Shown piece after piece: positions 1,444 through 18,956 of a stretch of DNA of 58,850 bases. The stretch comes from a bacterium (GTDB taxonomy: Bacteria; Patescibacteriota; Minisyncoccia; Phycocordibacterales; UBA9973). The stretch lies in the NCBI GenBank assembly GCA_043748495.1, contig JAYTNB010000050.1, forward strand, positions 1 through 58,850, given 5' to 3'. Position numbers and translations under genes: made by a program. The notes under the pieces are model-generated. The model was given only the letters and a program-made list of their open reading frames with translations, had not been told where the DNA came from and made no database searches. The first letter of the stretch is position 1; the number at the start of each line of letters is the position of its first letter.

Positions 1444-1474
1444 AAAATCCCCGAATTTATTTCGGGTTTTTTTA
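1444..1474. terminator. bidirectional rho-independent terminator between clpP and the convergent gene
   Basis: Stem CCCGAA (1450-1455) pairs with TTCGGG (1461-1466). An A-run lies upstream and a T-run (1467-1473) downstream. Confidence 0.75.
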
Positions 1475-2455
1475 TATCTCTCTTATTACATCAAAACCAT
1501 TCATACTTCCAGTTATAGTGAGACCTATAACTTCTTTGGCAATTTTTTGTTTTTTACATTTGGAAGCTATAACATTGAGTGTAGAACCAGAACCGGTAAA
1601 ATCATCTATAACTAGAAGTTTTTTGAAACTATTATTTTGTCCTATCGCATGTAATGTATTTTCTGCATTTCTAATTCTATCATTTACGTCTTTCAGACTT
1701 TTTTGTTGAATCATTATTGGTGTTTTTATTTTCTCTATACTTATTTTTGGTAAATTAGTCTTTACTCTTTTTTCTAATTCTTTCATAAACTGGATAGAAC
1801 GAGGTACTGTTGGTGGCACATAAGCAATAGCATCTGGTTTCATTTTTTCTATAAAGTTTTGGATTTCATTTTCAACAATATCTAAAACCTTTTTCATAAG
1901 CATTTTATTTTGAGTTTGTTTTGCATGAAAAAGCCAAAGAGCGATTTTTGTTTTTCCAAAAATAGGAATACTATACGGGTGTAAATAGTAAAGACGATCT
2001 AGATATTTTTCTTTTATAAAAGTAATATCTAGTTTTTGTGTTGCATCTATAAAACCATCTTTTTTAAAATGATTGTATTCTTTAATAGATTCAGCATACT
2101 CTAGAGATTTTTTACCAACATCGTAATTTCTTTCTTTACACCAGATTTCAAATCCTTTTACTCCAACTATTTCTTTGCCATCTGTAGTAAGTAAAAGGAA
2201 ATTTTCTTCTAAAATATCTTTTACTTTAGAATCCAACAAAGTTGGATAACTAAACTTTTCATTAACTTCATTTGCAAGTACATAGTACACTTTTGGCGCC
2301 TTACCTATCTTGGTCAAAAGACCATCTTCGACAAGCTTTTTAATATGCCTATGTATCATTACACTCCCTATATTTAAGACAGAAGTCAATTCGTGAACTG
2401 AAACAGTCCCCTTTTCTTCTATATATTTAAGTATTTTATCCTTATTACTGTACAT
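1472..2455 (-). CDS. winged-helix HTH protein fused to a phosphoribosyltransferase-like (ComF/GntX-type) domain
   Basis: The N-terminus (ILKYIEEKGTVSVHELTSVLNIGSVMIHRHIKKLVEDGLL) looks like a wHTH. The C-terminus has the PRPP-binding signature LLVIDDFTGSGSTLN. Confidence 0.6.
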   Translation of the reverse strand: MYSNKDKILKYIEEKGTVSVHELTSVLNIGSVMIHRHIKKLVEDGLLTKIGKAPKVYYVLANEVNEKFSYPTLLDSKVKDILEENFLLLTTDGKEIVGVKGFEIWCKERNYDVGKKSLEYAESIKEYNHFKKDGFIDATQKLDITFIKEKYLDRLYYLHPYSIPIFGKTKIALWLFHAKQTQNKMLMKKVLDIVENEIQNFIEKMKPDAIAYVPPTVPRSIQFMKELEKRVKTNLPKISIEKIKTPIMIQQKSLKDVNDRIRNAENTLHAIGQNNSFKKLLVIDDFTGSGSTLNVIASKCKKQKIAKEVIGLTITGSMNGFDVIREI

Positions 2456-2475
2456 AGTATATAGTATACTATGTA

Positions 2476-3549
2476 CTATGTACTATTGCAAGTACTTGTA
2501 CGCGTCCACCACATATGGCACTCATCGGTTGGTAATGTACTCACAATATACCTTAAAGGAGAAACCATGCCAAGAGATTCATGTGGTCTCTTTGTATCAT
2601 ACCAAAGTAACCAATCCATTAAGTCTTTGTTAAAAGTATTAAGATCTTCTTTTAAAGAATATAGATTCCAGTTAACATACTGTTCTTGTATTGTTCTGTT
2701 AAATCTCTCTACGTAGGCATTCATTTTAGGACATCTAGGATAATTATGAAAATGAACAATCTTTTCTTCTTCTAAATATTCTCTAAAGTACTTTTCAAAT
2801 TCAAGTCCATTGTCTGTTTGGATATGAGTAATTTCAAATGGAGCAACATCTCTTAATTTCTTTAAGAAGTCACGACCTACTTCTGATGAGAGATTTTTGT
2901 ATCCATATGCAAAAGCAAAATCACTTTCAACATCAATTGCTGTCATTATGAATCTTCTGACACCATTAATGAATTTAACTACAGTATCAACTTGGACTAG
3001 ATCACCTGATTTCTCTGGATTGTAGTCTTTACGTCTTAATTTCTTACGTTTCTTGACTATCCTCTCTTTCACATTACCTGTACGAGCATACATCGATACT
3101 TTGTTGTAACTAGGTAGTAAATTACGATTCTTTAGATCTTTTAGAATACGACCGATTTTTGATTCTGAATACGATATATTTAAGTCTTCTTTTAGTAAGC
3201 AAGCTAATTTCTTTTTACCAATTTTGTAGTGAAGTTTCCTTTGTTTAATGATGTATTCAATAGCTTCTAAATTAACATCTCTCTTTCTTTTGTTCTTGGG
3301 AGTTGCACTTGTTGCATTAAGACCTTCTAACTTACCATGTGTACTCTTGAGTGCCTTTTGCCAACGAAATAGAGTACGTTCCGATACTTTAAAAGCTTCC
3401 TTTGTTGCACAACTACCATGACGCTCCCAGAATGCTAAAATACGACATCTTTCTTTTGCTTGTTCTGTAATCATATACCGAAACCTTAGCATATTCTCCC
3501 ACATTGTAATGAACCCTTTTGTACCCTTGAAACGATTGAATTGGCGCAT
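2476..3549 (-). CDS. DDE (rve/integrase-core) transposase, IS481-like
   Basis: Single 357-aa ORF with an N-terminal HTH region. Catalytic triad contexts are LVQVDTV, IQTDNGLEF and NAYVERFNRTIQ, and the C-terminus has KRPHESLG. Confidence 0.85.
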   Translation of the reverse strand: MRQFNRFKGTKGFITMWENMLRFRYMITEQAKERCRILAFWERHGSCATKEAFKVSERTLFRWQKALKSTHGKLEGLNATSATPKNKRKRDVNLEAIEYIIKQRKLHYKIGKKKLACLLKEDLNISYSESKIGRILKDLKNRNLLPSYNKVSMYARTGNVKERIVKKRKKLRRKDYNPEKSGDLVQVDTVVKFINGVRRFIMTAIDVESDFAFAYGYKNLSSEVGRDFLKKLRDVAPFEITHIQTDNGLEFEKYFREYLEEEKIVHFHNYPRCPKMNAYVERFNRTIQEQYVNWNLYSLKEDLNTFNKDLMDWLLWYDTKRPHESLGMVSPLRYIVSTLPTDECHMWWTRTSTCNST

Positions 3550-3683: not shown

Positions 3684-3837
3684 GACACCACCTCTTATCC
3701 TATATTGTTTTCTTTGCTGCACGTGTGAAGAAATATTTTTCAAATATTTCTTCGTTCCTATAGACCCTCAAGCCAATGTCGTAACTTGAGAATCTAATAA
3801 GAAAGAAAAGGTTTGAAATCATCGCCCCTTTTCTTTT

Positions 3838-4101
3838 TTAATTTTCGTTTACAATCTGCCATCCCCAATGACCTTTTGGTACGAGCATTTTAATCTCGAT
3901 ACCATCAGGCATAGTGACAAATATTTCTCCATCACCGTTTGGAAGCTCTCTAAACTGTTCTCCGGGAATATCTTCCTTATTAACTCTCTCAAGTTTAGTT
4001 TGTTTTTTCCATTCCTTAACGCCAACTGGGCAAAACGCAAGCCATTTTTTATAGGCTTCCATTGTAAAAGAAATTTTTTCTAAATCGTGAACCTTCCCCA
4101 T
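3838..4101 (-). CDS. hypothetical small protein (87 aa from ATG 4101; the ORF track starts at TTG 4125)
   Basis: Open frame only; no motif recognised. A hairpin GAAAAGG/CCTTTTC (3805-3833) lies downstream on the minus strand. Confidence 0.4.
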   Translation of the reverse strand: MGKVHDLEKISFTMEAYKKWLAFCPVGVKEWKKQTKLERVNKEDIPGEQFRELPNGDGEIFVTMPDGIEIKMLVPKGHWGWQIVNEN

Positions 4102-4130
4102 TTTATATTTTATTTTAATGTACAAATTAA

Positions 4131-4174
4131 TTCTTACTGAGCCTGCTATAAAAATATAGTAACCTCAGCAAGAA
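4131..4174. other. long hairpin at the low-coordinate end of the 0.9-kb ORF-free stretch; possible minus-strand terminator
   Basis: TTCTTACTGAG...CTCAGCAAGAA pairs at 10/11 positions, with an inner stem CTATA/TATAG. On the minus strand it is followed by TTAATTTGT. Confidence 0.4.
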
Positions 4175-5024
4175 TGGCAAAAATTAATTTACCACTCCTG
4201 CCTCTCTCCTTTTTTAATAAAAGGATAAACAATATTCCCTATAGGCTCACAAGCAATGTCAAAAACTTGTGAGTCTAACAAGGATGCTGAAATTAAAAAC
4301 TTCAGCAAAATTGTTCGGAAACCCTAACCCCGAAAAAAATTTGATTCTTCCACAAACTTACTTTCTCTTATAAAGAGATCTTTTTTGATTAAACAAAAAA
4401 GATATACACTAGGTCGCAGAACCTTACCCGTGTAAATTCGACACTTGTCTTGGGGTATCGATCCCTATTCCAGTAGCTTACAAGAGACTCACTCTGCCGA
4501 AATCTCTATTACAGTGACCACCATAACATGCTGTATGTATGCTTAGAATACGTGGTGATATTCACCTCTTTTAGGATAACTTTTGACAGTATGCCTCTAA
4601 TCAAACGGCCTCCTGGCCAGTAAATATTAACACCAGACGAATCATTCCTGGTGCGAACAGTGTAATTTTTTTATGTTGATTTTTACTACAACAGTAAGTG
4701 TGGTTCTATATTATCCGAGCTGTATCTCCTTCGGAATTAAACCTAAGTTTTTTTATTGCCAGTACTTTACACTAAACTGGTTTTTGCTTGTCGTTGCAAA
4801 ACGTCTCAATCACAGAGATGTGACAACTACTTAATACGTTCTATTCCGTATAGTTGTTTGCAGTTTATGTTGGATACTAATAGAAGTATTTTAATGAGTC
4901 ACACCGCCCATCCTCGGCTTTATATACTAAAAGGAGGATCTTTGTTCATGATCTCTAATTTTTAGTTGTTTTTCTTTCGGAAATATTCCAGGGCGTATAA
5001 CATTCTTCCCATTATCAATAATTT

Positions 5025-6377
5025 TTATAGATTATTGATACCGACACCGCCGGTTGCTTTTGCAACTTCGCAAAGAGCATTGTTGGTAGTGTCTACAACA
5101 AAGGCATGCATCTTAGTACCTGCAAAATCTTTTGTTGCTTTTAAGTCAATTTTATCATCACCATCAGTGATAATTACAAGTTCTGGCTTGTAAGTCGCAC
5201 CATCAGCGATGATTTCATTGATTCTTTCCTGAGCTGACCTTGCACAGCCCGAGATGTCCGTGCTTCCGCCCGAATAATTTTTCTCGGTAAAATGCTTGAT
5301 TAACTCTTTCGCTTCAGTTGGCGTACCCGCATGGTACTCAGTTTTTAGCGATGTGTCGAAAAGCCGGACGTACAATTCCGCTTCTCCAGCAATTACTGCC
5401 TTTAAGCGGTTCATCAGAATCCCCCCAGCTTTGAAGATCCTTTTTCCCTCTCCCATAGAGCCAGAGCAGTCTATCATTACATATAGTAACTGCCTTTTTT
5501 CAATGGTTATCACTCGTTCACGGACAGGGATACCTCCGGTAACGGCCAGATAGTCAAAATAACTTTTTGACTGCTGGCGTACTGCCCAATAAGATTTTTC
5601 AATTTTATTGAGCTCTCCCATGTGACGAATAGGTCTTTTACGGATTTCGTCTCCGGCAGGATCCGCTTCCTGCTTTTTCAACTTACGAACTTGCATTTTC
5701 GTAAGTTTATCGAGGTTGCGGCTTATGGAAAGCATGATATCTTTACCATTGAGCATATCCTCGGCAAGGGACATTTTTTGCTGATCGTCATCAGCATTAT
5801 CTTTTCCTGAATCAGAATTCTCGTCAGAATCCGGATCCAAAAGTTCTTTCTCATCTTGAGTAAGGCTTTCCACCTGATCCAAAATTTGATTAACTTTTTT
5901 CCCTGCTTGTTCTGCCTTCTCAGCAAAAATCGGCAAGGATTCTCCACTTCCATCTCCACTACCACCTTCCATATTAGAAAGTAGCTTTAAGCAATTCATC
6001 GCCTGCTCGAGTGGAGTCGAACCAGGCAAACTTCCCACCTCTACAGTCTGCAAAAAATCGCAAACGTTTTGATGGTACTTAACAGCTTTTTCTGTTTCTT
6101 CGGCAAGTTTAGCTGCTTTAGAATTAGTCGAGCCTTTTTTTGTTTGCCAATTTCCACTCCTGTCAGGAGTTGGCCATTTCTCCTCAACATTTTTTTTCAC
6201 CTGTTCTTTATATGCAGATGGCGGCAATATTTTACCACCAGCTGCAATATTTGCGATGTCGGTAGCCAGGTCAGGTGAGAACCTGGACAGGCCGATTTTT
6301 TCTGCCACCTCTCTCATCTCCTCCTTTGACGGAGAAATATAATGCGAGGGTGGTACAGTACGAAATGTTTGTGACAT
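5025..6377 (-). CDS. von Willebrand factor A (vWA) domain protein with acidic linker (CobT/BchD-like architecture)
   Basis: MIDAS-type motif in LLYVMIDCSGSMGEG, then GGSTDI and LVIITDGDD. An acidic low-complexity linker (DPDSDENSDSGKDNADDDQQ) lies N-terminal to the vWA domain. I moved the start to ATG 6377 because AAGGAGG (6387-6393) lies 9 nt upstream; the ORF track starts at 6419. Confidence 0.8.
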   Translation of the reverse strand: MSQTFRTVPPSHYISPSKEEMREVAEKIGLSRFSPDLATDIANIAAGGKILPPSAYKEQVKKNVEEKWPTPDRSGNWQTKKGSTNSKAAKLAEETEKAVKYHQNVCDFLQTVEVGSLPGSTPLEQAMNCLKLLSNMEGGSGDGSGESLPIFAEKAEQAGKKVNQILDQVESLTQDEKELLDPDSDENSDSGKDNADDDQQKMSLAEDMLNGKDIMLSISRNLDKLTKMQVRKLKKQEADPAGDEIRKRPIRHMGELNKIEKSYWAVRQQSKSYFDYLAVTGGIPVRERVITIEKRQLLYVMIDCSGSMGEGKRIFKAGGILMNRLKAVIAGEAELYVRLFDTSLKTEYHAGTPTEAKELIKHFTEKNYSGGSTDISGCARSAQERINEIIADGATYKPELVIITDGDDKIDLKATKDFAGTKMHAFVVDTTNNALCEVAKATGGVGINNL

Positions 6378-6579: not shown

Positions 6580-7653
6580 TTAAACTCTAACAGAATCCAA
6601 AGCACGGGCCTGGCCTGATGTGATCAAGCCAGAAACTGCATCACGCATTTTATTGCGTTTATCAGTCAACCCGTCAGGGACTCGCATTCCTGCGAGTTTA
6701 TCCTGTAAATTACTTAAGCGTTTTACAGCTTGAAGTAATTTTATAGGAGAGGTCTCCTGACTGACCTCACGATTAAGCCCATCAAACTCCTGCTGTGCCA
6801 CTTGCAGGTTTTTTTCCGCTTCAGCGCGTTCCATTGCGCTTTTAAGATCTGCTTCGATTGTCGAAGCTAAACCTTCAAGACCCGGCAGATAGCGGAGATC
6901 TACCAAGTCTTGTTGTCCCACATGATCCGCACCACGCAATTTTGCAGATGTTTGACACACTTGATATGCGTGGACCGCAGTCCTTGGTGAAACAAAGTTA
7001 CCTTCTGCTGTAGCCTTAGCGAGGATTTCCGCCAAAACTGCCTTAAACCCATTCAAGATGGGCCCCCCAAGACGAGGGGCGACTTTTTCAAACAAAGCCT
7101 TGTAAGACTTTGCAGAATAGTCTTTCCATTCCAGATTATACTGAAGTGGAAAACGTTCAATTAAAGCGTGGGCTGCCGGGCCCAATTCACTTATCTCACT
7201 CGGCATCTTATTCGTTAGACAAATTATAACTTCAGTGCGCATTTTAAAACGCTGCGCACCATTCCTCAACTCCCGCGCAGTTAAGGTGTCTTTTAAAGCA
7301 AGTAAAACGCTCGCGGGAGCGTCAAACAATTCTTCGAAAACAGAAACCTTGCTGTTTAGGAAAGAATTTTCGGGAAAGTACTGGAGTACTTTTTCTTCCT
7401 CCAGTTTTTTAAAATCAAGACCCCCAAACAGTCTTGATTCATCCATTCCTTCTCCAAAGAATTGGAAGAAAGTTTCGGACTCCAGTCCGAGGCCATTGAC
7501 GATGGCCTGGATCATTTCGGATTTAGCATGACCGCCAGGCCCAAAAATGATCACATTTTTGTTTCCGCCCATTCCGAGCGAAAGAATTCTACTCACCTCA
7601 TCGGTAAACACGAATCCTTCCTCAAGGATGGACGGGATTTTTGTTACGTCCAT
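6580..7653 (-). CDS. single-module AAA+ ATPase, MoxR/CobS/NorQ-like
   Basis: Walker A-like GPGGHAKS (residues 38-45, non-canonical Ala in place of the second Gly). Walker B-like VSVFEE. The ~350-aa size and the adjacent vWA gene fit MoxR-vWA or CobS-CobT type pairs. Confidence 0.7.
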   Translation of the reverse strand: MDVTKIPSILEEGFVFTDEVSRILSLGMGGNKNVIIFGPGGHAKSEMIQAIVNGLGLESETFFQFFGEGMDESRLFGGLDFKKLEEEKVLQYFPENSFLNSKVSVFEELFDAPASVLLALKDTLTARELRNGAQRFKMRTEVIICLTNKMPSEISELGPAAHALIERFPLQYNLEWKDYSAKSYKALFEKVAPRLGGPILNGFKAVLAEILAKATAEGNFVSPRTAVHAYQVCQTSAKLRGADHVGQQDLVDLRYLPGLEGLASTIEADLKSAMERAEAEKNLQVAQQEFDGLNREVSQETSPIKLLQAVKRLSNLQDKLAGMRVPDGLTDKRNKMRDAVSGLITSGQARALDSVRV

Positions 7654-7853
7654 TTTTCTTAATCCCTTTCTTATGGGGAGTTTAAGATGTGACTTGAGCT
7701 GTTCTCCATTCCGATTATTGAAACTTCGACACTTGCGTCACCCCGCGATCTTATTGGTGCGGATCACCACGAGCGAGAATTAAATTATTCTCGCTCAGTT
7801 TGTTATCCTACTTGTTTATTTGAATTCCCCGTTCAGATCTAGGAATTTTAAAA

Positions 7854-8330
7854 TCACCAAGGGCACCGAGTTGTCTCAGTGCCAGTTATGATTTCTTCTT
7901 TCCCCCACACTAAAGCGTGAGAGTTCCAGAAATCATAACTTTTTTTGGTAGCATTTCTGTCCCAAGGTTCGGGCTCTGCCATGCTACCAACAAAGGCGGT
8001 GATTAAAATAAAAACGTTGGCATCCTCCGCCTTCTTGAGGATGACAACTACGCTTTGACAAGGTTCAGCTTGCCTGTCTTTGACAAACCTCGTCAAGCCA
8101 AAGCGTTTAGGCCTTTTTGCATACACAACTGTATCGCTCGGCCTAGTCGCGACACAAATTGTCTCACCGATGATTCGACCCATATCGATCTCCTCAACGA
8201 TGAAATTTCTCCCTTTTGCTTCTATACTTAGTAAAGCCTCTGGAAGAAGAGAGACTATGCCATTGTGAAGGTGTGAGTTTGGTCTATCTCTCACTTCTTC
8301 ACCAGAAGCAATCCTTAAAATATTTTCCAT
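7854..8330 (-). CDS. hypothetical protein (158 aa), first gene of the AAA+/vWA island
   Basis: Open frame with GC-richer composition like the two downstream genes. No motif recognised. Ends with TGA. Confidence 0.5.
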   Translation of the reverse strand: MENILRIASGEEVRDRPNSHLHNGIVSLLPEALLSIEAKGRNFIVEEIDMGRIIGETICVATRPSDTVVYAKRPKRFGLTRFVKDRQAEPCQSVVVILKKAEDANVFILITAFVGSMAEPEPWDRNATKKSYDFWNSHALVWGKEEIITGTETTRCPW

Positions 8331-8917
8331 ATTTTTTGAATTAAAGTTTTGCTTTCGTGTAACGTCCTACGGCATCTACGTTAATTTATCATTAATAGCC
8401 ACCCGTATAAAACGGGCAGTATTAATGCTAAATTAAAAAAGTTTTCAAATAACTTGTCTTACCATAAATCAGGCCTCTCTCCTATTTATGCTCCATAGAT
8501 ACACTCTCCTATGCTATCTGTGGTTCCTTCGTAAAGACATTTCTAGATACAACAATGGGTTAGGTCGTTATATCCAGTCGATTTCATTACGAAACGTTTG
8601 TGAGGTTGTGGTCTCCTTTATATGTTTTGCGGCATATATTGGATTCCTCTCACGGTGCAAAAAAGAATTTATGTAATGTTTATAGAATACTCTCTCTTCT
8701 TTCCTAACTTACCGGCCTAGGTGCCGTCTTGCATTTATAGAATCAAACACAAGATCAGAGGTAAACATCATTATCATATATCTCCTTTAAAGAACTCTCT
8801 CCTTAACTTCTTGCACATAGTATAGCAGAAATAGCACACTTTGTCAATAAGCTATATACAAAAATGCCGTACGTGCTATAAATTTATTATAAAATAAGGG
8901 TTTATTAGTTATCCACA

Positions 8918-8937
8918 TTGTCACATTTGTGTGACAA
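8918..8937. promoter_or_regulatory. perfect palindrome TTGTCACA-tttg-TGTGACAA upstream of the TrmB-like regulator (candidate operator)
   Basis: 8-bp inverted repeat read directly from the sequence. TACAAT at 8950-8955 lies 6 nt before the ATG at 8962. Confidence 0.45.
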
Positions 8938-8961
8938 AAGTAGATATGCTACAATAAAAGC

Positions 8962-18813: not shown

Positions 18814-18876
18814 AAAAACACCTAGATCACAGATCTAAGTGTTTAAACATGTGCCAAAATCTAGAAACCAAAATCG

Positions 18877-18956
18877 TCGGAGTACTTGGATTCGAACCAG
18901 AGATCTTGTTTTACGTAAAACGCAAAAACACGTAATACCAGCTATACCATACCCCG
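18877..18956 (-). tRNA. aberrant 80-nt tRNA-like gene, tRNA-Lys(UUU)-like with an elongated anticodon arm
   Basis: Acceptor CGGGGTA/TACTCCG (one G:U), D-arm GTA(T)-AGCTGGTA-(T)TAC, 5-nt variable loop and T-arm TCTGG-TTCGAAT-CCAAG (one C:A mismatch). The anticodon arm is 24 nt (TGTTTTTGC-GTTTTAC-GTAAAACA) instead of 17. Confidence 0.5.

What the first reader, a model, noticed from the sequence alone, without database searches (positions are those of the whole stretch)
4126..5024. 0.9-kb ORF-free, non-AT-rich stretch downstream of the vWA gene: candidate large structured RNA or decayed/recoded gene
In a genome where spacers are short and AT-rich, this 899-nt stretch has no ORF of 60 codons or more on the minus (operon) strand. 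It still has about 48% GC in the line I counted (4441-4500). It holds many local hairpins: 4131-4174 (10/11 bp plus an inner 5-bp stem), 4246-4273 (CTCACAAG/CTTGTGAG), 4607-4618 (GGCC-tcct-GGCC) and 4631-4653 (CACCAG/CTGGTG). The hairpin at the low-coordinate end is followed by a T-rich tract on the minus strand. That would fit a discrete minus-strand transcript running from the vWA stop to about 4130. The two plus-strand ORFs in the track (4756-4965 and 4966-5193) have no SD sequence and odd composition, and one overlaps the vWA gene. I could not match the sequence to RNase P, tmRNA, SRP RNA or a group II intron domain V by eye.
Basis: seen in the sequence. Interest (0 to 1): 0.65.

Follow-up and report, generated by a model that had tools for sequence, protein, structure and literature searches.

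The report
Structured RNA with ribosome-stalling mini-gene
The 0.9-kb "empty" stretch after the vWA gene of this ultra-small (Patescibacteria) bacterium is a conserved, folded RNA that is in no RNA-family database and starts with a tiny translated gene carrying a known ribosome-stalling motif, so it looks like an undescribed RNA-based control or sensing device.

Summary
Window 4126-5024 is the longest ORF-free stretch in the window, and its GC matches coding DNA. It is not a decayed or recoded gene, because all six frames carry all three stop types and tblastx finds no protein remnant. Rfam 15 has no match.

Relatives from Patescibacteria show what it is. Directly after the vWA gene of a conserved MoxR-vWA cluster, on the same strand, lies a conserved non-coding module. 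A short form is about 340 nt. A long form, present in the window and three relatives, is about 750-900 nt and equals the short form plus an inserted domain of about 430-500 nt.

Base-pair covariation is strong: 18 of 21 pairs in a 103-nt core found across several CPR lineages, and 18 of 32 in the 5' domain. A coding control gives 5 of 43.

Near the 5' end sits a translated mini-ORF (4949-4920, MNKDPPFSI). Its relatives read M-x(0-4)-R-[D/G/A/S]-P-P-stop. They use all six Arg codons and match RAPP-like ribosome-arrest motifs (16 of 56 loci under strict criteria against 0.27 expected).

Most likely a ribosome parked on the mini-ORF is coupled to the fold and fate of the large RNA. This mechanism is inferred, not shown.

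The parts
5025..6374 (-). vWA-domain protein gene (NorD/CoxE-like: helical N-terminal part plus C-terminal vWA). It is the upstream neighbour, and every related RNA follows it.
   Evidence: Pfam VWA_2. 289 homologues, nearly all from Patescibacteria. The AF2 model has pLDDT 85, and Foldseek hits are vWA domains and NorD only, with no TROVE/Ro60-like domain.
4950..5016 (-). Conserved 5' leader. It holds GGGAAGAAUGUUAUAC (4995-5010), the GCCC 5' strand of the long-range closing helix (4991-4994), the hairpin UGGAA-UAU-UUCCG (4978-4990) and the GAAAGAAAAACAA tract.
   Evidence: Nearly invariant in 11 relatives. The hairpin covaries (GGAA/UUCC, AUCA/UGAU, GGCA/UGCU). GCCC pairs with GGGG/GGGU in both the short and the long forms.
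4920..4949 (-). Mini-ORF AUG AAC AAA GAU CCU CCU UUU AGU AUA UAA (MNKDPPFSI). The Pro-Pro codons lie at 4932-4937. It is a RAPP-like arrest-type mini-gene, with K in place of R and a weak SD in this window.
   Evidence: It is one of only two such mini-ORFs in the whole window on both strands. Homologous SD-preceded mini-ORFs occur after vWA in 27 other loci, using all six Arg codons, all Pro codons and all three stops. Under strict criteria they occur in 16 of 56 loci against 0.27 expected.
4748..4919 (-). Rest of the 5' domain shared with the short forms. It holds helix 4823-4857 (ACAACU...AGUUGU with an inner hairpin), hairpin CCAG...CUGG (4759-4780) and the conserved CAAUAAAAAAA / UAAUACAAA tract (4748-4758).
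   Evidence: On the MAFFT alignment A11 of 11 sequences, 92.6% of cells are paired. 18 of 32 pairs change on both sides, 0 of 500 shuffles reach this, and slid controls give 33-46%.
4336..4747 (-). Inserted domain found only in the long forms (window, L060, L061, L094). It includes hairpins 4631-4653 and 4607-4618, the core, and hairpins 4378-4403 and 4365-4377.
   Evidence: Homology to L060, L061 and L094 runs across the whole gap. RNAalifold on 4 sequences gives 165 pairs, 50 of them with compensatory changes. Short forms lack this domain, but their 3' tails are homologous.
4404..4506 (-). 103-nt core: three helices joined by near-invariant single strands (UCGGCG-AGUGA, AUAGGGA, CCCGAGACAAG, GUAAGGUU-CGCGAC).
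   Evidence: Covariance models R1 and R2 find it only downstream of vWA on the same strand, in L060, L061, L036, L030 (Levyibacteriota) and L007 (Paceibacterota), and weakly in L009 (CPR2). 96% of cells are paired, 18 of 21 pairs change on both sides, and slid controls give 31-52%.
4322..4334 (-). UUCGGGGUUAGGG: the 3' strand of the closing helix, which pairs with GCCC at 4991-4994.
   Evidence: RNAalifold on the long forms. The single-sequence MFE closes the same ends. It is homologous to AAGGGGUUA of the short forms.
4273..4307 (-). Terminal hairpin UGCUGAAGU-UUUUA-AUUUCAGCA (4285-4307) plus the conserved tail UCCUUGUUAGAC (consensus YCCUUAUUSA). It is terminator-like and is a possible 3' end of the core RNA.
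   Evidence: The terminator-like scan hit this site. The sequence of the hairpin varies while its position and the tail are conserved in short and long forms.
4131..4272 (-). Distal part. It holds hairpin 4246-4273 (kept with G-U pairs in L060), CUAUAGGGAAUA (4233-4244), hairpin 4206-4226 and the window-specific hairpin 4131-4174 followed by a U-rich tract. It is either the true 3' end or the promoter and leader of the next gene.
   Evidence: Partly aligned with L060 and L061. A sigma-70-like TTGCCA-16-TATATT lies at 4180-4153.
3838..4101 (-). 87-aa ORF (p95) directly downstream on the same strand. It is a recurrent member of the same gene cluster in other Patescibacteria.
   Evidence: tblastn finds homologues after the vWA gap in L045 and L039, before p158 in L027, and elsewhere in L054. 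It has no Pfam or NCBIfam match.

Best explanation
The gap is the conserved non-coding tail of a Patescibacteria-specific MoxR-vWA gene cluster. It is read on the minus strand, most probably as a continuation of the vWA transcript.

It has two coupled parts.
1. A Shine-Dalgarno-preceded mini-ORF of 5-10 codons sits about 75 nt after the vWA stop. It ends in [R/K]-[D/G/A/S]-Pro-Pro, which is the RAPP-like motif that blocks peptide-bond formation in the ribosome.
2. A large multi-helix RNA (about 340 nt in short forms, about 750-900 nt here) surrounds and follows the mini-ORF. A long-range helix (GCCC with GGGG) closes it, and it carries a 103-nt core conserved across CPR lineages.

Proposed working: a ribosome that starts on the mini-ORF parks at Pro-Pro. 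The parked ribosome and the RNA fold influence each other. The ribosome opens or protects the 5' part of the fold, and the fold gates access to the SD. Together they set the stability, processing or termination of the structured RNA and the read-through into the downstream cluster genes (p95 here, p158 in other lineages). Expression would thereby be tied to the state of translation.

Shown: conservation, strand, base-pair covariation, amino-acid-level selection on the mini-ORF, synteny with vWA, and absence from Rfam.

Inferred: co-transcription, actual stalling, the coupling between ribosome and fold, and the regulatory output.
For: Synteny and conservation:
- nhmmer and blastn find the element only directly after vWA, on the same strand, in every close relative.
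- The core is found by covariance model in distant CPR lineages at the same place.

Structure:
- The core has 96% of cells paired and 18 of 21 pairs with double changes.
- The 5' domain, on a structure-blind MAFFT alignment, has 92.6% paired and 18 of 32 double changes, against 33-46% in slid controls.
- A coding control from the same taxa gives 5 of 43.
- Many G-U pairs would be A-C mismatches on the other strand.

Mini-ORF:
- An SD (AAAGGAGG) lies 5-9 nt before the start codon.
- The peptides are MDRGPP, MIRDPPY, MTRAPP, MKNRDPP, MRYIRAPP, MIRGPPQKR and similar.
- Arg is coded by AGA, AGG, CGA, CGC, CGG and CGU, and all three stop codons occur.
- The motif is about 60-fold enriched over background.

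Motif function from the literature:
- RAPP and RGPP give the strongest arrest, RDPP and RSPP are permissive, and EF-P does not relieve the arrest.
- The motifs are enriched near the C-termini of small ORFs that regulate downstream genes (PMC12992588).
- A minimal RxPP suffices for arrest (PMC10951233).

Downstream genes: in several loci a cluster gene follows on the same strand. This is p158 in L018, L019 and L028, and p95 in the window, L039 and L045. L028 has a second MRDPP... mini-ORF just before p158.
Against: - The window's own mini-ORF has Lys instead of Arg and only a weak SD (uagag), so stalling may be weak here.
- Peptides of 5-9 residues are shorter than any arrest peptide tested so far.
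- In L051/L052 the next gene is on the opposite strand. In close relatives the downstream genes differ. The element therefore cannot simply be the leader of one fixed gene.
- The size and the invariant single-stranded blocks go beyond what an attenuator needs and suggest an additional partner or activity.
- There are no expression data. No promoter was found between vWA and the RNA, but the scan only covers sigma-70 consensus.
- Thermodynamic z-scores do not discriminate: RNA -3.6, antisense -3.2, vWA coding -5.0.
- Only 4 long-form sequences were available.
Confidence: 0.55

Rival explanations
1. It is a free-standing, trans-acting large non-coding RNA, processed from the operon or transcribed on its own. 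It would work as part of a ribonucleoprotein with the cluster proteins (MoxR ATPase, vWA protein, p158) or with the ribosome. The mini-ORF would be a secondary feature, either a dual-function RNA or a ribosome-docking site.
For: - The size, the multi-domain fold closed by its two ends, and the near-invariant unpaired blocks conserved across CPR lineages resemble OLE, GOLLD or ROOL-type RNAs more than attenuators.
- The element persists where no same-strand gene follows (L051/L052).
- It is strictly linked to vWA.
- The operon has further RNA elements of its own.
Against: - No RNA-binding domain was detectable in the vWA protein or in p158.
- No promoter was found.
- The domains come and go between close relatives: short against long forms, and core without the 5' domain in L009.
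- The mini-ORF is the most widely conserved part.
Confidence: 0.27
2. It is a passive long 3' UTR or terminator region. Its hairpins merely protect the operon mRNA from 3' exonucleases and insulate it from neighbours, with no specific sensing function. The mini-ORF would be a leftover of translational coupling.
For: - Its position is at the operon end.
- There are terminator-like hairpins at 4285-4307 and 4131-4174.
- Structures are equally stable in the neighbouring coding RNA.
Against: - A passive spacer would not keep invariant unpaired nucleotides and three covarying helices across CPR lineages.
- It would not keep amino-acid-level selection for R-x-P-P through all six Arg codons.
- Typical spacers in this window are short and about 30% GC.
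Confidence: 0.1
3. It is a decayed or recoded protein gene (pseudogene, alternative genetic code), or real small protein genes on the plus strand (4756-4965, 4966-5193).
For: The stretch is gene-sized with coding-like GC. tblastx to L001 gives short matches.
Against: - TAA, TAG and TGA all interrupt every frame every 20-50 codons.
- The tblastx matches occur in several frames on both strands, as expected from nucleotide conservation.
- Relatives are equally ORF-free.
- Indels between relatives are not multiples of three.
- Substitutions are compensatory in helices rather than of codon-third-position type (against 116).
Confidence: 0.03
4. It is a remnant or cargo of a mobile element, for example related to the IS481-like integrase gene at 2476-3549.
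For: An rve_3/HTH_32 transposase gene lies 600 nt further downstream. Downstream gene content varies between relatives.
Against: - The element is always anchored to the vWA stop, in loci that have no transposase.
- There is a single copy in the window.
- The core pattern has no match in viral contigs.
- No repeat-like distribution was seen.
Confidence: 0.02

Closest known systems
RAPP-like ribosome arrest peptides (ApdA, ApdP, ApcA, SecM; RAPP/RGPP/RAGP cores)
   Same: - The core motif is the same, R-[A/G/D/S]-P-P at or next to the C-terminus of a small SD-preceded ORF.
- The motif is otherwise avoided in proteomes.
- In several loci it lies upstream of a same-strand gene of the same cluster (PMC12992588, PMC10951233, PMC7897499).
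   Different: - These ORFs are only 5-10 codons, so there is no N-terminal sensor or secretion signal and no pulling force for release.
- They are not linked to Sec/YidC genes.
- They lie after, not before, the conserved MoxR-vWA pair.
- They are embedded in 0.3-1.5 kb of conserved structured RNA.
- The window's copy has K instead of R.
Large ornate bacterial non-coding RNAs (OLE, GOLLD, ROOL, raiA)
   Same: - The size range is 0.3-0.9 kb.
- There are many covarying helices with invariant unpaired blocks.
- The taxonomic range is narrow.
- The gene neighbourhood is fixed, as for OLE with its oap genes.
- The function is unknown.
   Different: - There is no sequence or structure match to any Rfam 15 model, even at E up to 10.
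- It contains a translated mini-ORF.
- It is modular, with whole domains present or absent between close relatives.
- It is found in Patescibacteria.
Leader-peptide attenuators and arrest-controlled leaders (tnaC-tnaAB, ermCL-ermC, secM-secA, ABCF resistance-gene leaders)
   Same: The logic is the same: a ribosome paused on a tiny ORF remodels adjacent RNA structure. A hairpin plus U-rich tail sits at the end, and the SD-like GGAGG can pair with the Pro-Pro codons CCNCC.
   Different: - It is ten times larger than usual leaders.
- It lies at the 3' end of an operon.
- The downstream gene is not constant and is sometimes absent.
- The conserved core is far from the mini-ORF.
tmRNA and dual-function RNAs (RNAIII/hld, SgrS/SgrT)
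   Same: It is a structured RNA whose 5' and 3' parts pair and which encloses a very short reading frame.
   Different: ARAGORN finds no tmRNA here. The mini-ORF has its own SD and start codon, and there is no tRNA-like domain.
Ro60 (vWA-containing) with Y RNA; MoxR-vWA chaperone pairs (NorQ/NorD, RavA/ViaA, CbbQ/CbbO)
   Same: A vWA protein gene sits next to a non-coding RNA gene (Ro60/Y RNA). The MoxR AAA+ and vWA pair has NorD-like architecture.
   Different: There is no TROVE domain in the vWA protein. No known MoxR-vWA pair has an associated RNA.

Membership tests
RAPP-like arrest peptides | Core motif Arg-[Ala/Gly, partly Asp/Ser]-Pro-Pro (or RAGP/RAPG) | tested here: inconclusive
   The feature is met in relatives: RGPP in L009, L018, L020, L024, L034, L057 and L030; RDPP in L001, L014, L019, L033, L035, L040 and L093; RAPP in L025 and L037; RSPP in L022. 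The window itself has KDPP. Whether Lys can replace Arg was not found in the papers read.
RAPP-like arrest peptides | Motif lies at or near the C-terminus of a small translated ORF | tested here: met
   The stop follows 0-3 codons after Pro-Pro in most loci. An SD lies 5-9 nt before the start. Synonymous codon variation is seen at Arg, Asp, Gly and Pro.
RAPP-like arrest peptides | Ribosome actually stalls with Pro-tRNA in the A site | not testable with these tools
   This needs toeprinting or PURE translation.
RAPP-like arrest peptides | Monitoring-substrate design: an N-terminal signal or transmembrane segment so that the regulated machinery releases the arrest by pulling | tested here: not met
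   The peptides are 5-10 residues and cannot leave the exit tunnel.
RAPP-like arrest peptides | Regulates a downstream same-strand gene | tested here: inconclusive
   A cluster gene follows in some loci: p95 in the window, L039 and L045, and p158 in L018, L019 and L028. In L051 the next gene is on the opposite strand, and downstream genes vary in close relatives.
Known RNA families of Rfam 15 (RNase P, tmRNA, SRP, 6S, group I/II introns, OLE, GOLLD, ROOL, raiA, HEARO, riboswitches) | Score at or above the family's gathering threshold with its covariance model | tested here: not met
   Only four tRNAs reach threshold in the window. In 3700-5400 at E up to 10 there are only chance miRNA and snoRNA matches of 18 bits or less.
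tmRNA | tRNA-like domain plus tag reading frame | tested here: not met
   ARAGORN reports no tmRNA in the window.
Structured functional RNA (generic) | Base pairs kept through compensatory changes beyond what controls give | tested here: met
   against slid controls and against the coding control. R-scape statistics were not available.
Ro60/Y-RNA-type ribonucleoprotein | TROVE (HEAT-ring) RNA-binding domain fused to the vWA domain | tested here: not met
   A profile search of PDB sequences and Foldseek of a pLDDT-85 model hit only vWA domains and NorD.
MoxR-vWA-beta-propeller ternary conflict systems (Kaur et al. 2020) | bpMoxR-type ATPase next to a vWA protein | tested here: met
   PF20030 bpMoxR with E = 8.6e-17 on 6580-7653. 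The vWA gene is adjacent.
MoxR-vWA-beta-propeller ternary conflict systems (Kaur et al. 2020) | Third component with beta-propeller or effector domains | tested here: not met
   The neighbours are GNAT, TrmB, p158 and p95. No propeller or effector domain was found. p158 has no known fold match.
Pseudogene / recoded gene | Protein-level similarity, or a frame that opens on reassigning one stop codon | tested here: not met

The most novel reading that the evidence does not exclude
The RNA and its RxPP mini-ORF may be the built-in monitoring substrate of a Patescibacteria-specific ribosome-directed machine.

In this reading, a ribosome arrested on the mini-ORF is held on a large RNA scaffold. It is the sensor for, or the client of, the MoxR AAA+ ATPase, the vWA protein and the novel-fold protein p158. 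These would remodel or rescue ribosomes stalled at EF-P-resistant sequences.

This would be analogous to midasin/Rea1 (AAA plus MIDAS) acting on eukaryotic ribosomal particles. The RNA would then be a new class of ribosome-docking large RNA.
Probability: 0.1. Interest if true: 0.92.

Novelty: new variant of a known kind. Interest (0 to 1): 0.76.

Why it matters
Patescibacteria make up a large share of bacterial diversity, yet almost nothing is known about how they regulate genes.

- This locus gives a directly testable, conserved RNA device in them. It is a large covarying RNA fold absent from Rfam, physically joined to what would be the shortest natural members of the RAPP-type ribosome-arrest family.
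- Gene callers do not annotate 5-10-codon ORFs, and published surveys of annotated small proteins would miss them.
- If stalling is confirmed, the minimal natural length of an arrest peptide shrinks to about five residues. It would also show that arrest can be coupled to a kilobase-scale RNA structure rather than to a simple hairpin.
- It attaches a first functional handle (translation state) to a MoxR-vWA-p158 cluster of unknown function that is conserved across the radiation.
- The RNA is also a candidate for the current cryo-EM work on ornate RNAs.

Tried and rejected
- **Rfam:** searches at gathering threshold (whole window) and at E up to 10 (3700-5400 and 7600-9000) found no relevant family.
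- **Alternative genetic codes:** every frame has TAA, TAG and TGA.
- **Pseudogene:** tblastx against 48 related loci gave only nucleotide-level echoes with L001.
- **tmRNA and tRNA:** none in the gap.
- **Ro60/TROVE idea for the vWA protein:** rejected by PDB profile search, AF2 and Foldseek.
- **p158 as a clue to function:** the model is confident, but there is no PDB fold match and no Pfam or NCBIfam family.
- **Metagenome scan with the 5' motif:** it returned only duplicates of loci already held plus chance matches.
- **Thermodynamic z-scores as evidence of structure:** rejected as non-discriminating, because the antisense strand and the vWA coding region score as well or better (one search timed out).
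- **Separate promoter for the RNA:** none was found between vWA and the RNA with the sigma-70 scan.
- **Literature:** searches for any description of such an RNA or of arrest peptides in Patescibacteria or MoxR-vWA operons found nothing.
- **One fixed downstream gene:** rejected, because the downstream genes differ.
Full report
**1. The observation.**
The window comes from a Patescibacterium (CPR). The vWA protein's nearest named relative is a Candidatus Nomurabacteria MAG, and nearly all 289 homologues are from Patescibacteria.

On the minus strand the gene order is:
- GNAT (9722-11632)
- TrmB on the opposite strand (8962-9741)
- a 158-aa protein, p158 (7854-8330)
- a bpMoxR-type AAA+ ATPase (6580-7653)
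- a vWA protein (5025-6374)
- the gap
- an 87-aa ORF, p95 (3838-4101)
- an IS481-like integrase gene

The gap 4126-5024 has no minus-strand ORF of 60 codons or more. It is the longest ORF-free stretch in the window. Its GC is 35.4%, equal to coding DNA and above the other non-coding DNA at 30.2%. The segment 4441-4500 is 48% GC.

**2. What it is not.**
- Rfam 15 has no family matching the gap, at gathering thresholds or at E up to 10.
- ARAGORN finds no tmRNA.
- All three stop codons interrupt all six frames, so no reassignment opens a frame.
- tblastx against related loci gives only short matches in several frames on both strands with the closest relative. That is the signature of nucleotide conservation, not protein conservation.
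- The equivalent stretches of relatives are equally ORF-free.

**3. Conservation and synteny.**
I fetched 48 loci encoding relatives of the vWA protein from species-representative genomes, plus 14 contigs of closer relatives. Many have gaps of 400-1500 nt after vWA.

Nucleotide searches show two forms.
- The first 270-340 nt after the vWA stop is conserved in all close relatives. In L054 it is 80% identical although the protein is only 75% identical.
- Three relatives (L060, L061, L094) share homology with the window across almost the whole 0.9 kb. This includes a block of about 110 nt that is about 90% identical.

The 3' tails of the short and long forms are homologous. Both have the closing strand AAGGGGUUA / CGGGGUUAGGG, a variable hairpin and the conserved tail YCCUUAUUSA. 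The tail starts at RNA position 258-296 in short forms and 690-792 in long forms. The long form is therefore the short form with a domain of about 430-500 nt inserted.

**4. Evidence that it is a structured RNA on the minus strand.**
I built a covariance model of the 103-nt core (window 4404-4506). Among 646 kb of fetched loci it finds hits only downstream of vWA on the same strand. These are L060, L061, L036, L030 (Levyibacteriota) and L007 (Paceibacterota), with a weak hit in L009 (CPR2).
- In this core, 96% of cells are paired and 18 of 21 pairs change on both sides.
- No shuffle out of 500 reaches this, and slid controls pair at 31-52%.
- Caveat: that alignment was fitted to the model.

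The 5' domain was therefore tested on a plain MAFFT alignment of 11 sequences.
- 92.6% of cells are paired and 18 of 32 pairs change on both sides.
- 0 of 500 shuffles reach this, and slid controls give 33-46%.
- The last 270 nt of the vWA coding region was used as a control, with the same taxa and procedure. It gives only 5 of 43 pairs with double changes.

RNAalifold on the four long forms predicts 165 pairs, 50 with compensatory changes. It includes a helix that closes the molecule, GCCC at 4991-4994 with GGGG/U near 4328-4331. The single-sequence MFE closes the same ends.

Frequent G-U pairs would be A-C mismatches on the plus strand, which assigns the RNA to the operon strand.

The fourth (4131-4174) is specific to the window.

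Thermodynamic z-scores are not evidence here. The RNA scores -3.6, its antisense -3.2, and a piece of the vWA coding region -5.0 (also 114).

**5. The mini-ORF.**
Inside the conserved 5' domain, 76 nt after the vWA stop, lies AUG AAC AAA GAU CCU CCU UUU AGU AUA UAA (4949-4920, MNKDPPFSI). At the same place, relatives have SD-preceded mini-ORFs.
- Close relatives: MNKDPPF, MNKDPPL, MNRGPPF, MRDPPFN.
- Distant loci: MDRGPP (L009, twice), MIRDPPY, MFVRGPPGS, MKNRDPP (L033, L035), MTRAPP, MRYIRAPP, MIRGPPQKR, MPTRSPPVV, MRDPP, MIRGP and others.
- L030 begins MVITVRGPP... (sequence).

The Arg is encoded by all six Arg codons, Asp by GAU and GAC, Gly by GGU, GGC and GGA, and Pro by all four codons. 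All three stop codons occur. A strong SD (AAAGGAGG) sits 5-9 nt before the start. That is selection on the peptide, so the mini-ORF is translated.

Under strict criteria (SD, 4-20 codons, [RK][DGAS]PP) it occurs within 450 nt after vWA in 16 of 56 loci. The background rate in the same loci predicts 0.27. The whole 58.85-kb window has only two such mini-ORFs on both strands.

The motif is that of RAPP-like ribosome arrest peptides.
- RAPP and RGPP give the most robust arrest, and RDPP and RSPP are partially permissive.
- EF-P does not relieve the arrest.
- The motifs are the most avoided tetrapeptides in bacterial proteomes.
- Where they occur, they sit near the C-termini of small ORFs upstream of regulated genes (PMC12992588).
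- A minimal RxPP is reported to suffice for arrest (PMC10951233).

The window's own copy has Lys for Arg and a weak SD, so it may be an attenuated version.

**6. Context.**
The cluster GNAT, TrmB, p158, MoxR and vWA is conserved across Patescibacteria. p158 lies either before MoxR or after the vWA gap, and p95 recurs too.
- The vWA protein models confidently (pLDDT 85) but resembles only vWA domains and NorD, with no TROVE or other RNA-binding domain.
- p158 models at pLDDT 94 with no PDB match.
- Downstream genes differ between close relatives, and in L051 the next gene is on the other strand.
- No sigma-70-like promoter lies between vWA and the RNA.
- Terminator-like hairpins lie at 4285-4307 (conserved position) and 4131-4174. 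A promoter-like site at 4180-4153 could serve p95.

**7. Mechanism.**
Shown: a conserved, covarying RNA fold on the operon strand, a translated arrest-type mini-ORF embedded in its 5' part, fixed linkage to the vWA gene, and modular gain and loss of domains.

Inferred:
- The RNA is co-transcribed with vWA.
- A ribosome translating the mini-ORF parks at Pro-Pro.
- The parked ribosome and the fold are mutually dependent. SD-like GGAGG can pair with the CCNCC Pro codons, and the mini-ORF lies inside the closing helix.
- Together they decide the stability, processing or termination of the RNA and the read-through into p95 or p158.

I put about 0.85 on [quoted passage not shown]. I put about 0.55 on the ribosome-coupled cis-acting reading as a whole.

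The main rival (0.27) is a free-standing ribonucleoprotein RNA in which the mini-ORF is a docking site. The invariant unpaired blocks of the core argue that some partner binds it in either case.

**8. Comparison with what is known, and novelty.**
Closest known are the RAPP-type arrest peptides and arrest-controlled leaders on one side, and large ornate RNAs (OLE, GOLLD, ROOL, raiA) on the other. The element fails membership in every Rfam family.

It meets the motif and position criteria of RAPP-like peptides in its relatives. It does not meet the monitoring-substrate design, because the peptides are too short to be pulled.

Searches of the held literature found no description of such an RNA, nor of arrest peptides linked to MoxR-vWA or to Patescibacteria. 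Mini-ORFs of 5-10 codons are not annotated, so published surveys of annotated small proteins would not have seen them.

I rate it a new variant of a known kind, with interest 0.76.

Noticed in passing
window 7685-7776 (minus strand), spacer between p158 and MoxR: A second conserved RNA element: a nearly invariant motif of about 90 nt (CUCGUGGUGAUCCGCACCAAYAAGAUAGCGGGGUGGCGCAAGUGUCGAAG...GAGAACAGCUCAAGYCACA). It has a covarying hairpin and is followed by a variable hairpin. That hairpin is either terminator-like (L060, L061, L051) or encloses the MoxR SD (L054, L057, L049), which is a riboswitch-like layout. nhmmer finds the motif upstream of MoxR in 13 further distant Patescibacteria loci. It has no Rfam match.
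   Followed up: partly
window 8331-8961: A 631-nt ORF-free region lies between the divergent TrmB and p158 genes. Relatives have equivalent gaps of 760-1050 nt. Nucleotide conservation to L006, L051, L054 and L060 is patchy, which suggests a long leader or another RNA.
   Followed up: partly
window 7854-8330 (minus strand): p158 is 55-70% identical across distant CPR lineages, which is more conserved than MoxR or vWA. It has invariant His, Cys and Trp residues and a C-terminal CPW. It has no Pfam or NCBIfam family, a confident AF2 model (pLDDT 94) and no PDB fold match, so it may have a novel fold and is of unknown function.
   Followed up: partly
L028 8060-8160; L009 7340-8100: L028 has a second arrest-type mini-ORF (MRDPPRFTL...) about 130 nt upstream of p158, in addition to MNKSPPWL after vWA. 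L009 (CPR2) carries two tandem copies of the mini-ORF (MDRGPP / MDRGPPEIEA) plus the following RNA unit.
   Followed up: no
window 5628-5927 (vWA coding region) and the same region in 10 other loci: The vWA coding RNA folds much more stably than shuffles. The z-score is -5.0 with 200 shuffles in the window, and the mean is about -6 in other loci with 12 shuffles each. This is unexplained, and it is the reason z-scores were not used as evidence.
   Followed up: no
window 18876-18956 (minus strand): ARAGORN calls an 81-nt tRNA-Ala(UGC) that the Rfam tRNA model did not report at gathering threshold. It may be an unusually long or interrupted tRNA.
   Followed up: no
window 15588-16368: This is the second-longest ORF-free stretch (781 nt). 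It holds tRNA-Pro at 16254-16325, and the rest is unassigned.
   Followed up: no
window 1472-3549 and 3838-4101: Between the cluster and clpP/tig lie an IS481-like integrase gene (rve_3 + HTH_32, 2476-3549) and an HTH-PRTase-like gene (1472-2455, shared with L050). The content of this segment differs between close relatives. p95 (3838-4101) recurs in the cluster in L027, L039, L045 and L054.
   Followed up: partly
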